Origin: Longimicrobiales bacterium | Lineage (GTDB): Bacteria; Gemmatimonadota; Gemmatimonadetes; Longimicrobiales; Gaopeijiaceae | Direction of reading: 5' to 3' | Assembly (NCBI GenBank): GCA_965218295.1 | Contig: CBDCKN010000013.1 | Span: 192,001-256,000, forward strand | DNA: 64,000 bases | Shown: in pieces, positions 24,736 through 26,228 of the stretch | Numbering within the stretch: the first letter of the stretch is position 1 | Layout: each line of letters starts with the position of its first letter | The notes under the pieces: model-generated | Databases searched by the model: none | The model's input: the letters and a program-made list of their open reading frames with translations, nothing else | Told to the model about the DNA's origin: nothing | Translations under genes and position numbers: made by a program

Positions 24736-24762
24736 CCAATGGCTCCTGGCACCAACAGTACG

Positions 24763-25746
24763 TTAGCAACTGTGTTGGAAACGGAGCTGATCGATGGGGA
24801 TCGCTGGGTCCCACTTCCGACCGTCGCGGATCATGGCGTTGAGGATGATGAGCAGCTTCCTCATGCAGGCGACGTGGGCCACCTTGGGAGACTTCCCGCG
24901 GTCGCGTAGCCGGCGATAGAACACCCGGATGACAGGGTTCCATTTCGAAGCGCTCAAGCTGCTCATGAAGAGGGCAGATCGAACAGGAGCGCGTCCACCC
25001 CAGATCATGCGCTTCCCTCGGAAGAGGCCGCTGTCCCTAGCGAGTGGGGCGACTCCGACCAGAGCAGCGATCTGCTTGTTGGAGAGTCGACCGAGCTCGG
25101 GGAGTTCAGCGATGAGGGTACGAGCGAGGTTCGGGCCGACGCCGGGTACCTCGCGCAAGAGATCGCTCTTGGCTCGCCAGACGGGACTGTTTCGGATCAG
25201 ATCGTCGAGGTCAGAGTCGATGTCGGAGAGCTGACGCTCGAGCCAGCGGATATGCTTCTTGATGCCCTTCTGGACCGCAGGTAGCGCGAAGCCCAGTCGA
25301 TTGTTCTCGGCCGTGATCATATCGATGATCTGGCGCCTACGGCCCACGATCGCGTCGAGGGCACGGGCAGCGTCATCGGGTAAGGGACGGACCTGGGGGC
25401 GGACTCGTTCGGCGAAGAGCGCGAGGATGTGGGCGTCGATCGCGTCGGTCTTGGCGAGTTGGCCCGTGGACTTCGCGAAATCACGCACCTGCCGGGGGTT
25501 CGCGATGACGACTGGGATCTCAGCGGCTGCGAGAGCTGCAGCCGCGGCGACCTCGAAGCCACCGGTAGCCTCCAACACCACGAGCGTGGGCGGCCTCTCA
25601 TCCAGACGCTGGACCAACTGGGCGATCCCATCAGGAGCATTCGGGACGGTCCACGTCTCGTCTGACCCGGTCAGGGCGACATCGAGTTGGGCCTTCGAGA
25701 CGTCGACTCCCGCGAAGACAGGGGGCAACTCCATACGAACCTCCAA
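24763..25746 (-). CDS. IS110 family recombinase (IS621-like group)
   Basis: [37 protein letters not shown] stop is completed by target DNA. Confidence 0.95.
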
Positions 25747-25939
25747 GCTAGTGGCGGCGATTCGTACACTCCCGGCCTTGCACGATGCGGGCTCATAGGC
25801 CCTGGCAACTGTTCGAGATCCGACGAATCGCGGGCTACGGTGCGACGCCCCAGCTAACGTACGGTCTTCAAGACCCTAGATGGAACGGGCTGTCGCACCT
25901 TACTCTGTCTCCGAACATGTCGATTCGTCGACATACAAG
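24765..25939 (-). mobile_element. IS110 element (IS621-like) with CT core and 5' non-coding end
   Basis: CT core at 24765-24766 and 25938-25939; circle junction ACAGTTG-CT-TGTAT resembles the IS621 donor ACAGTAT-CT-TGTAT. Confidence 0.92.
25755..25935 (-). ncRNA. Bridge RNA
   Basis: LTG GTTCCATCT, RTG GTACGTTAG (25862-25854), LDG ACAGTTGC (25812-25805), RDG TGCAAG (25782-25777); closing stems present. Confidence 0.85.
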
Positions 25940-26228
25940 ATGGTTAACATGGTCATAGATCCCATTATCACCACAGCCGTGGCAATCGCTTTTCGGGACA
26001 AGATATCGAACGCCGTTGGCATTTTGTTTGAGCCCCGACAGATTAGAAGAATCACCGCAGCGAAGGCCGAGGCCGCAAAGCTGGAGGCTCAGTCTGAAAT
26101 TGAGATAACCGAGTTACATCGCAGGGCCGCCCGTCGATGGATCGACGAAGAAGCACAGCGTCAGAAGAACATGGAAGAAATTGCTGCTAAAGCATTGCCG
26201 CACTTGAAGGAAGACGCGGATCCCGGTT
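25940..26228 (+). pseudogene. DUF2806-like protein N-terminus, truncated by IS3
   Basis: KISNAVGILFEPRQIRR..AEA..RAARRWIDEEAQRQKNMEEIAAKAL. Confidence 0.7.

What the first reader, a model, noticed from the sequence alone, without database searches (positions are those of the whole stretch)
24755..25950. Fully readable IS621-like bridge RNA with a new target specificity
Seen (minus strand): target TAACCAT-CT-AACGTAC and donor junction ACAGTTG-CT-TGTAT. The upstream non-coding end has GTTCCATCT-[GGTCTT/AAGACC hairpin]-GTACGTTAG inside a GGTGCGAC..GTCGCACC stem, with the right guide a perfect 9-nt match and the left guide 6 of 9. A second loop reads ACAGTTGC-[hairpin]-TGCAAG. The recombinase stop codon TAA needs the target's AA. 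Known: this is the IS621 bridge-RNA layout. Inference: preferred target is GTTCCAT-CT-AACGTAC, with an extended right guide tolerating distal left mismatches; a compact (about 325 aa) candidate programmable recombinase.
Basis: partly seen in the sequence, partly recalled or inferred. Interest (0 to 1): 0.72.

Follow-up and report, generated by a model that had tools for sequence, protein, structure and literature searches.

The report
RNA-guided transposon aimed at integron cores

Summary
This is an intact 1,171-bp IS110-group element (323-aa DEDD/serine recombinase) with an IS621-type two-loop bridge RNA upstream, CT cores and a stop codon completed by the target; the RNA stems covary across 21 relatives. 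The interpretation needs correcting. Guide-flank covariation stops at target position 14, so the right guide is the ordinary 7 nt. The 9/9 match here is chance (1 of 3 identical copies). The window's reconstructed target is probably a chimera of two sites. Read on the other strand, the guides spell the integron core box GTTAGRY plus a typical cassette start. In this Gemmatimonadota clade 15 of 31 right junctions abut an attC R' arm, against 4 of 49 sequence-matched control sites, and removing the element restores cassette starts that match their own R''. The left guide fits poorly because that half is the variable cassette start. This copy is not in an attC; its twin on C3 is. Only IS1111-group elements are described as attC-targeting in the papers searched, but this scan already noted similar IS110 elements in other genomes. 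RNA expression and activity are untested. New variant of a known kind.

The parts
24767..25937 (-). IS110-group element, 1,171 bp between its two CT cores
   Evidence: identical copy on C3 and in genome G209 of another genus, ends defined by where identity stops
25938..25939 (-). left CT core
   Evidence: same dinucleotide at the C3 and C15 copies
24765..24766 (-). right CT core; its T is the first base of the stop codon
24763..25734 (-). recombinase gene, 323 aa; D11, E55, D97, D100 and S235 align with the IS621 catalytic residues; stop completed by target AA
   Evidence: PF01548 + PF02371, NF033542 216 bits over cut-off 140, ISCro4 E 1.8e-40 and IS621 E 2.7e-35, positions
25735..25937 (-). 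left non-coding end, 203 nt, predicted to encode the bridge RNA
25933..25937 (-). right donor half (TGTAT)
   Evidence: conserved in relatives
24767..24773 (-). left donor half (ACAGTTG), inside the last codons of the gene
25918..25933 (-). 5' hairpin TGTCGA/TCGACA
   Evidence: helix 1, 88.7% of cells paired
25839..25899 (-). target-binding loop (outer stem, inner hairpin 25875-25863)
   Evidence: helices 2 and 3, 98% paired, 7 of 16 pairs with two-sided change
25878..25886 (-). left target guide GTTCCATCT; only positions 4-7 plus core are followed by the flanks
25854..25860 (-). right target guide ACGTTAG, 7 nt, pairing with CTAACGT (= integron core GTTAG plus 2 nt on the other strand)
25852..25853 (-). 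predicted handshake guide of the target loop (C can pair with donor G7, not with target T7)
   Evidence: sequence read against PMC11208158 passages; inference
25757..25831 (-). donor-binding loop
   Evidence: helices 4-6
25805..25812 (-). left donor guide ACAGTTGC (8 nt, as in IS621)
25777..25783 (-). right donor guide GTGCAAG (5 Watson-Crick and 2 G:T pairs to CTTGTAT), followed by predicted handshake GC at 25776-25775
24758..24764 (-). right flank AACGTAC: end of a repeated ~135-nt segment, not an attC
25940..25946 (-). left flank TAACCAT: start region of a DUF2806 gene whose homologue in G176 has a different upstream neighbour

Best explanation
This is an intact IS110-group insertion sequence of a Gemmatimonadota clade whose predicted bridge RNA spells the integron core recombination box, and it likely inserts by RNA-guided recombination at attC and attI core sites and at genomic look-alikes. 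Shown: architecture, guide sequences, guide-flank covariation over a 14-bp target (7 + CT + 5), and junctions that lie on the bottom strand of GTTAGRY with the CT core at bases 4-5 of the box, antisense to the cassettes. Inferred from IS621: the RNA is made and bound, a circular donor ACAGTTG-CT-TGTAT forms, and a recombinase tetramer exchanges strands at the CT cores. The right guide reads the conserved attC side (CTAACG, nearly always exact). The left guide reads the first bases of the next cassette, which vary, so only the four core-proximal bases are followed. This element's CAT variant favours GTTAGAT-type starts over the clade's GTTAGGC. The insertion point lies 3-4 bases past the IntI crossover (G^TT), so the upstream attC keeps GTTAG and the element would become part of the downstream cassette (inferred, untested). 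Recognition is likely by sequence alone, since half the copies lie at CTAACG look-alikes. The window's copy is one of these, and its two flanks were probably joined by a later rearrangement.
For: Repeats beside the element are real attC sites: in G018 an IntI is followed by an attI-like core and 7 such hairpins, and each R'' matches the preceding core in 6 of 7. A model built only from 10 element-free attC sites hits right junctions exactly, 2 nt before the core, in L098, L100, L101, L105, L109, L046 (E <= 1e-6), L036, L235, and weakly or cut off in L095, L048, L104, L117, L225. It gives 1 significant hit in 74 more distant IS110 loci. By a uniform test 15 of 31 junctions are attC-like, against 20 of 768 CTAAC, 11 of 277 CTAACG and 4 of 49 CTAACGT sites in this genome. 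Removing the element restores a 7-bp box matching the next R'' at 6-7 of 7 in 5 of 7 loci. The 23 element-free core sites have consensus G-N-G-C-N-G-C|CT|AACG-N, against clade guide GTTCCGC|CT|AACGT. Flanks follow the guide variant: A at position 6 in 6 of 8 CAT-guide sites against 1 of 22 CGC-guide sites. The C3 twin sits between an attC R' arm and a cassette-like gene start. The carriers form a clade with support 100 (27 rows, 25 with an AAC flank).
Against: The window's own site is not an attC (no model hit, arm score -7.7). The identical G209 copy lies inside a methyltransferase-like reading frame. So 1 of 3 full identical copies is at an attC. 16 of 31 junctions fail the attC test, and G005's seven 62%-identical copies are 1 of 7. 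Thresholds were set after seeing the scores, the control comes from one genome with few intact attC sites, kin are not independent, and selection against insertions in genes could inflate the attC share. Guide position 3 (T) disagrees with the attC consensus (G, 18 of 23). No IntI over the cut-off in this genome (90.7% complete). No circle joint in four contig runs, no consensus promoter, and RNA expression was not examined.
Confidence: 0.72

Rival explanations
1. The guide is a plain sequence preference for CTAACG with no evolved link to integrons. Copies accumulate in attC sites only because these are non-coding, tolerated and lie in mobile islands.
For: 16 of 31 junctions are not attC-like. 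The identical G209 copy is in a gene. CTAACGT occurs 54 times in this genome. Guide positions 1-3 fit attC flanks poorly.
Against: CTAAC is invariant in the right guide of all 21 aligned left ends (proteins 64-100% identical) while other guide positions change. Guide positions 4, 6 and 7 equal the consensus of 23 element-free cassette starts. Only 4 of 49 CTAACGT sites here are attC-like.
Confidence: 0.13
2. Targeting needs the attC hairpin as a second determinant beside base pairing, as reported for the target stem-loop of ISPpu10. Non-attC copies are rare errors or decayed sites.
For: Enrichment over sequence-matched sites, odds ratio about 10. Sites with only 3-4 of 7 left matches are used. 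Precedent in 10.64898/2026.03.19.712850 (passages).
Against: Half the junctions have no hairpin, including a clean insertion in an open reading frame. Weak left matching is also seen at non-attC sites, and half-match insertion is reported for IS621.
Confidence: 0.1
3. One reading: a stand-alone 16-bp target with a 9-nt right guide that compensates for distal left mismatches.
For: 9 of 9 right match and 6 of 9 left match at this copy.
Against: Positions 15-16 match at chance level in 25 junctions. The C3 and G209 identical copies have CT and GT there, not AC. The last guide base is invariant whatever the flank.
Confidence: 0.04
4. Sub-question, origin of this copy's flanks: they are the two halves of one real empty site (an allele not sampled), not a chimera.
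For: The joined site scores 11 of 14 against the guides, a level reached by only 49 CT sites in the genome. Both halves fit their guide.
Against: All 6 element-free copies of the right-flank segment that were printed (G000 x2, G002 x3 of which 3 shown, G061, G146 give 7 rows with the same start) continue with (G/A)ATGGCCAC, not with the DUF2806 start, as do loose ends in 4 of 4 runs. The DUF2806 homologue in G176 follows a different gene.
Confidence: 0.25

Closest known systems
IS621 and ISCro4 (IS622) bridge recombinases, IS110 group (PMC11208160, PMC11208158, 10.1101/2025.05.14.653916; PDB 8wt6, 9t56)
   Same: DEDD + serine recombinase, upstream two-loop bridge RNA, CT core, 9-nt left and 7-nt right target guide, 8-nt left donor guide, handshake dinucleotides, donor of the ACAGT..CTTGTAT type.
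   Different: Target is the integron core box, not a REP. There is no separate right end: the gene runs through the left donor half and takes its stop from the target. No junction -35 or consensus promoter was found. Distant protein (E 1e-35 to 1e-40), Gemmatimonadota host clade.
IS1111-attC group: ISKpn4, ISPst6, ISPa21, ISPa25 (PMC11187229 passages; PMC3001079 passage; Tetu & Holmes 2008 and Post & Hall 2009 seen only in reference lists)
   Same: RNA-guided IS110/IS1111-family elements that insert at a fixed base of attC, antisense to the cassettes.
   Different: [quoted passage not shown] This element has no such repeats (best 7 of 12), has an upstream RNA, and inserts in the 3' core box (R'), leaving the hairpin in one piece.
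Group IIC-attC introns (PMC3001079 passage, PMC9229058 passage)
   Same: Mobile elements that use attC sites as safe targets, antisense to the array.
   Different: Retroelements with a ribozyme; they insert near the 5' end of attC; unrelated chemistry.
ISPpu10 (10.64898/2026.03.19.712850, passages)
   Same: IS110 element whose target is a repeated intergenic sequence with a stem-loop.
   Different: There the stem-loop is shown to be a specificity gate; here half the copies lack any hairpin and a structural role is untested.

Membership tests
IS110 family | [quoted passage not shown] | tested here: met
   D11, E55, D97, D100, S235
IS110 group (not IS1111) | long non-coding region upstream of the gene | tested here: met
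   203 nt upstream, none downstream; criterion from PMC11187229
IS110 group (not IS1111) | no 11-13-bp sub-terminal inverted repeats | tested here: met
   best match 7 of 12 over offsets 0-19
IS621-type bridge recombinase | two stem-enclosed internal loops carrying target and donor guides, shared CT core | tested here: met
   guides
IS621-type bridge recombinase | target guides covary with insertion flanks | tested here: met
   positions 4, 6, 7, 13, 14; positions 6-7 by guide type; kin not independent
IS621-type bridge recombinase | RNA is expressed and bound by the recombinase; recombination is reprogrammable | not tested
   six RNA runs hold only small shares of the element and no RNA run was laid; binding and activity need the bench
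IS621-type bridge recombinase | circular intermediate with joined ends | tested here: inconclusive
   no joint in 4 of 4 contig runs; contigs drop rare forms
IS621-type bridge recombinase | sigma-70 promoter formed across the circle junction | tested here: inconclusive
   no consensus promoter in the linear region; by eye the junction has no TTGACA-like hexamer at the expected place; the junction itself was not scanned
IS1111-attC group | sub-terminal inverted repeats and downstream guide RNA | tested here: not met
IS1111-attC group | inserts at a fixed position of attC, antisense to cassettes | tested here: met
   clade level: 15 of 31 junctions; not met for the window copy
IS1111-attC group | insertion near the 5' end of attC | tested here: not met
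   insertions are in the 3' core box; only L025 (62% relative) is at the 5' inverse core
IS1111-attC group | transposase falls in the ISKpn4/ISPst6/ISPa21 clade | not tested
   no named member was among the 30 rows listed in either plasmid search, so none was in the tree
attC site (targets of relatives) | RYYYAAC...GTTRRRY ends, bottom-strand hairpin, array beside intI, R'' complementary to the preceding core | tested here: met
   G018 array, 6 of 7 exact; same repeat family at the element junctions; definition from PMC3518468
attC site (window's own right flank) | hairpin with inverse core, or attI beside intI | tested here: not met
   no model hit in the window; element-free allele scores 8 arm pairs and -7.7 bits; no IntI over cut-off in the genome
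attC site after insertion | still recombined by IntI | not testable with these tools
   GTTAG is kept and bases 6-7 change; natural sites in the G018 array carry 1-2 mismatches there

The most novel reading that the evidence does not exclude
A second, independent RNA-guided lineage (IS110 group, upstream bridge RNA) has converged on integrons. It inserts just past the IntI crossover, leaves the upstream attC working and rides as cargo at the head of the next cassette, so IntI excision and re-integration give it a second, recombinase-independent way to move. Its left guide has been retuned within the clade (CGC, CAT, and a shifted AT-core form) to follow the commonest cassette starts, and the target-supplied stop codon makes the mature recombinase depend on landing at an AA-containing core.
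Probability: 0.3. Interest if true: 0.68.

Novelty: new variant of a known kind. Interest (0 to 1): 0.46.

Why it matters
A new guide sequence alone is ordinary: natural IS110 guides are diverse and 72 orthologues have been screened. What adds value is the identity of the target. attC-targeting is described for IS1111-group elements and group IIC introns. An IS621-type bridge RNA aimed at the crossover box would be a convergent route into integrons, and one that need not destroy the site. It gives a natural case of asymmetric guide use (exact right arm, four-base left arm) that bears on half-match recombination and off-target rules for bridge editors, and a ready starting point for a tool that inserts cargo into cassette arrays. 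The scan has already noted similar elements in other genomes, so this is confirmation on a further clade and not a first sighting.

Tried and rejected
Rfam: 0 families in the window. No tRNA. Minimum-energy fold of the left end not significant alone. Idea that the window's site is an attI or attC: raised, then rejected, because element-free copies keep the same downstream sequence, there is no hairpin and no IntI nearby. Nine-nt right guide rejected. First regex parse of guides was off by one and mis-hit many loci; redone. First attC finder was too strict and was run on the wrong side of intI, since arrays here lie 3' of intI. The first hairpin threshold (14 pairs) passed 81 of 773 control sites and passed the window's flank through the neighbouring IS256, so 20 pairs or 8 bits was used. 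Viral contigs held no relative of the DUF2806 fragment. No circle joint in contigs (absence proves nothing). Plasmid searches gave no named IS1111-attC member among the rows listed. The careful tree did not finish; the quick tree is reported. Durrant supplement searches for short words were swamped by unrelated sequence; 'integron' occurred 0 times, and a whole-word search of file 5 found no target label ending in CTAA (files 3 and 4 cut, file 2 unreadable). Sequence and place look-ups in earlier findings gave nothing relevant. No structure or complex prediction was run, as the fold is known.

Full report
1. Observation. The minus strand carries every motif named. The gene starts at 25734 and encodes 323 aa. 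It has PF01548 and PF02371, NF033542 above cut-off, and ISCro4 and IS621 as its only two solved relatives. The IS621 catalytic positions are present as D11, E55, D97, D100 and S235. The genome holds a second identical full copy on C3 and a 204-nt 5' fragment on C15, which fix the ends: 1,171 bp between two CT cores. The left end is 203 nt. There is no separate right end, and the stop takes AA from the flank. No sub-terminal inverted repeat was found (best 7 of 12). The left end does not fold better than shuffles (z -0.92). In an alignment of 21 left ends, the six helices I named are 93% paired, with 16 of 39 pairs changed on both sides, against 5.3 in shuffles and at most 8 in slid controls. 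The structure was drawn from the window's sequence, which favours it over the slid versions.

2. How long are the guides? I fetched 50 genome loci and the best 80 of 217 metagenome matches, plus loci from 61 relatives, and parsed guides and junctions. Duplicates (L022, L033, L111, L130), loci without a parsed guide (L112, L113, L027, the seven G005 copies) and, for the left table, the AT-core copies were left out, giving 25 left and 25 right junctions. Right: positions 10-12 are AAC in 25/25. Position 13 matches in 24/25 (permuted 18.7) and position 14 in 20/25 (8.5). Positions 15 and 16 match in 7/25 (7.5) and 6/25 (6.0). Left: positions 1-3 match in 8, 10 and 6 of 25 (no excess); positions 4-7 in 16, 19, 19 and 20 (permuted 12.3, 17.0, 14.1, 14.6). 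The target is therefore 14 bp with a 7-nt right guide, as described for some natural IS110s (PMC11208160). A pattern search of 251 family genomes found the target loop in 13, and 0 with the reversed control. It included a copy in G209, another genus, identical at 1,171 of 1,171 bases (recent transfer or mis-binning). The three identical full copies have AACGT followed by AC, CT and GT. Sites of CAT-type guides have A at position 6 in 6 of 8, CGC-type in 1 of 22 (L226 and L227 were left out and would make it 2 of 24). Kin are not independent, so the p-values overstate.

3. What is the target? On the opposite strand the junctions read GTTAG followed by two bases, the integron core GTTRRRY, with the crossover between G and TT (PMC3518468). 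IntI is over the cut-off in 14 of 61 genomes, including both of the same genus but not this one. Arrays lie 3' of intI. In G018 an attI-like core is followed by seven hairpin repeats 760-1,420 bp apart, and each R'' is the exact complement of the preceding core in 6 of 7, the mark of true cassettes. A covariance model from 10 element-free sites of four genomes gave 27 hits in 45 sources. Hits begin two bases before the right core in L098, L100, L101, L105, L109 and L046 (E <= 1e-6) and L036 (2e-4), and weakly or cut by the contig end in L095, L048, L104 and L117 (positions). There is none in the window. In 74 more distant IS110 loci it gave one significant hit, in a 62% Gemmatimonadota relative. 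In 14 loci found later it hit the junction of L235 (1.6e-16) and five neighbouring sites at E < 1e-5. A uniform test (R'-arm score >= 8 bits or >= 20 arm pairs; thresholds chosen after seeing the scores) passes 14 of 28 junctions in the first set and 1 of 3 in the later set, 15 of 31 in all. L097, L102, L117 and L225 were dropped for flanks under 26 nt; L036 (pass), L027 (fail) and G005's copies (1 of 7, at the R'' end) are counted apart. Controls in this genome pass at 20 of 768 CTAAC, 11 of 277 CTAACG and 4 of 49 CTAACGT sites; this genome has few intact attC sites, so the contrast is an upper estimate. Where an attC lies 0.5-1.1 kb left of the element, removing the element restores a box matching that R'' at 7/7, 6/7 (four loci), 5/7 and 3/7. 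Twenty-three element-free core sites, picked by their position in arrays, give G-N-G-C-N-G-C|CT|AACG-N. The clade guide GTTCCGC|CT|AACGT agrees at unselected positions 1, 4, 6 and 7 and disagrees at 3. A quick tree of 96 proteins puts the window's element in a clade of 27 rows with support 100, 25 of them with an AAC flank; all named members are Gemmatimonadota.

4. This copy. The C3 twin has an attC R' arm on its right (12 bits; cut short by another IS) and a ribosome-binding site and 203-aa gene on its left. The window copy does not. Its right flank, once an IS256 insertion is discounted, is the end of a ~135-nt segment that in seven other loci of four genomes continues with (G/A)ATGGCCAC, as do loose ends in 4 of 4 runs. 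Its left flank is the start of a DUF2806 gene (weak hit), later cut by an IS3-like element, whose 87%-identical homologue in G176 follows a different gene. The simplest reading is two guide-selected half-sites joined by recombination between copies or by an adjacent deletion (inference). A single unsampled allele remains possible, since the joined site scores 11 of 14, reached by only 49 CT sites in the genome.

5. Mechanism. Shown: anatomy, guide length, position and orientation of insertions. Inferred from IS621 (PMC11208158; PMC13626964): low-level or circle-driven RNA expression, a circular donor, top-strand cleavage 3' of the cores and handshake pairing, for which the dinucleotides here are in the productive state. 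The right arm is read almost exactly because the attC side is conserved. The left arm is the variable cassette start, so matching is partial, in line with the half-match tolerance reported for IS621 (10.64898/2026.08.31.748434). After insertion the upstream attC ends GTTAGCA: the crossover triplet is kept, and natural sites in the G018 array already carry 1-2 mismatches at these bases. The element would then lie inside the downstream cassette. Whether IntI still acts, and whether downstream cassettes are silenced, is untested. No circle joint was seen in contigs, no consensus promoter was found, and RNA was not examined.

6. Relation to what is known. It works like, and meets the tested criteria of, an IS621-type IS110-group bridge recombinase. 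It fails the IS1111-attC criteria (repeats, RNA position, insertion near the 5' end). Searches for an IS110-group element at attC cores returned only IS1111-attC and intron reports; most subscription papers, ISfinder and preprint supplements were out of reach. What I saw: passages of PMC11208160 (supplement searches), PMC11208158, PMC11187229, 10.1101/2025.05.14.653916 (80), 10.64898/2026.03.19.712850 (95), PMC3518468, PMC3001079, PMC8618304, PMC11089894, PMC12444791 and PMC9229058; abstract and one section each of 10.64898/2026.08.31.748434 (25, 74) and PMC13626964; nothing of Tetu & Holmes 2008 (not held) or Post & Hall 2009. The label 'reverse integron' comes from a search listing. 'REase-like' for the G176 neighbour and 'methyltransferase-like' for the G209 frame are my recall, not a call. 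Fifteen earlier notes of this scan, in at least 13 genomes, hold the same words; I had written down my reading before that look-up, and they are not independent evidence.

7. Verdict. New variant of a known kind; interest 0.46.

Noticed in passing
L214 (G018:C56), L212 (G001), L213 (G011), L182-L186: In these relatives the attI-like core and cassette array lie on the 3' side of intI, on its strand (reverse-integron layout). In the hairpins the right-hand spacer between L' and the core is 8-9 nt.
   Followed up: partly
L045, L046/L111, L126, L027 left junctions: Relatives with an AT left core and a CT right core; in L045, L046 and L126 the left guide is one base longer. Their target would be a GTTAT-type core, which occurs among element-free attC sites: a natural core mismatch between donor and target.
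   Followed up: partly
L025, L034, L038, L040-L043 (G005): A 62%-identical sister element with right guide for CTAACAA; one of seven copies sits at the inverse-core (R'') end of an attC, on the top strand.
   Followed up: partly
L213:3849-4913, 6733-7797, 12115-13179, ~16100-17240; L212:~3400-4610: A second IS110-family element (354 aa, below the NF033542 cut-off) in several copies in cassette arrays, its left end abutting GTTAG.
   Followed up: partly
L212:9326-10372; G000 C3:377859-378990: A third IS110-family element (348 aa in G001) inserted inside attC about 20 nt before the core; a similar end and a 339-aa IS110-like gene lie beside an attC arm on C3.
   Followed up: partly
window 25937-25899 (circle junction): In the joined form the gene would read through the junction and gain 12 residues, ending at a TAA just before the target loop. 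The same spot carries a conserved (C/T)AGAAT that could instead be a -10 box 18 nt after TCGACG.
   Followed up: partly
G209:C5 (L231): Element identical to the window's in another genus, inserted in an open frame resembling an adenine methyltransferase of a restriction-modification system (recalled motif).
   Followed up: partly
window 23280-24735: IS256-family element (about 16 copies in the genome) inserted 29 nt from the IS110 end, with an 8-10-bp target duplication.
   Followed up: partly
window 19544-23279: Tyrosine-integrase island (integrase 20215-21399 and integrase remnants); 21403-23279 is duplicated at 99% on C3.
   Followed up: no
window 25955-33438: Low-GC accessory genes: DUF2806 fragment cut by an IS3-like element, a 632-aa DUF2971 protein, DUF4238 and a TPR protein; possibly defence-related cargo.
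   Followed up: no
G000 C1:80246-80346, C9:257544-257613, C3:362540-362640, C13:555363, C15:214073: Scattered attC sites and R'-arm remnants in a genome with no IntI found; several, like those of G001, have lost the inverse core.
   Followed up: partly
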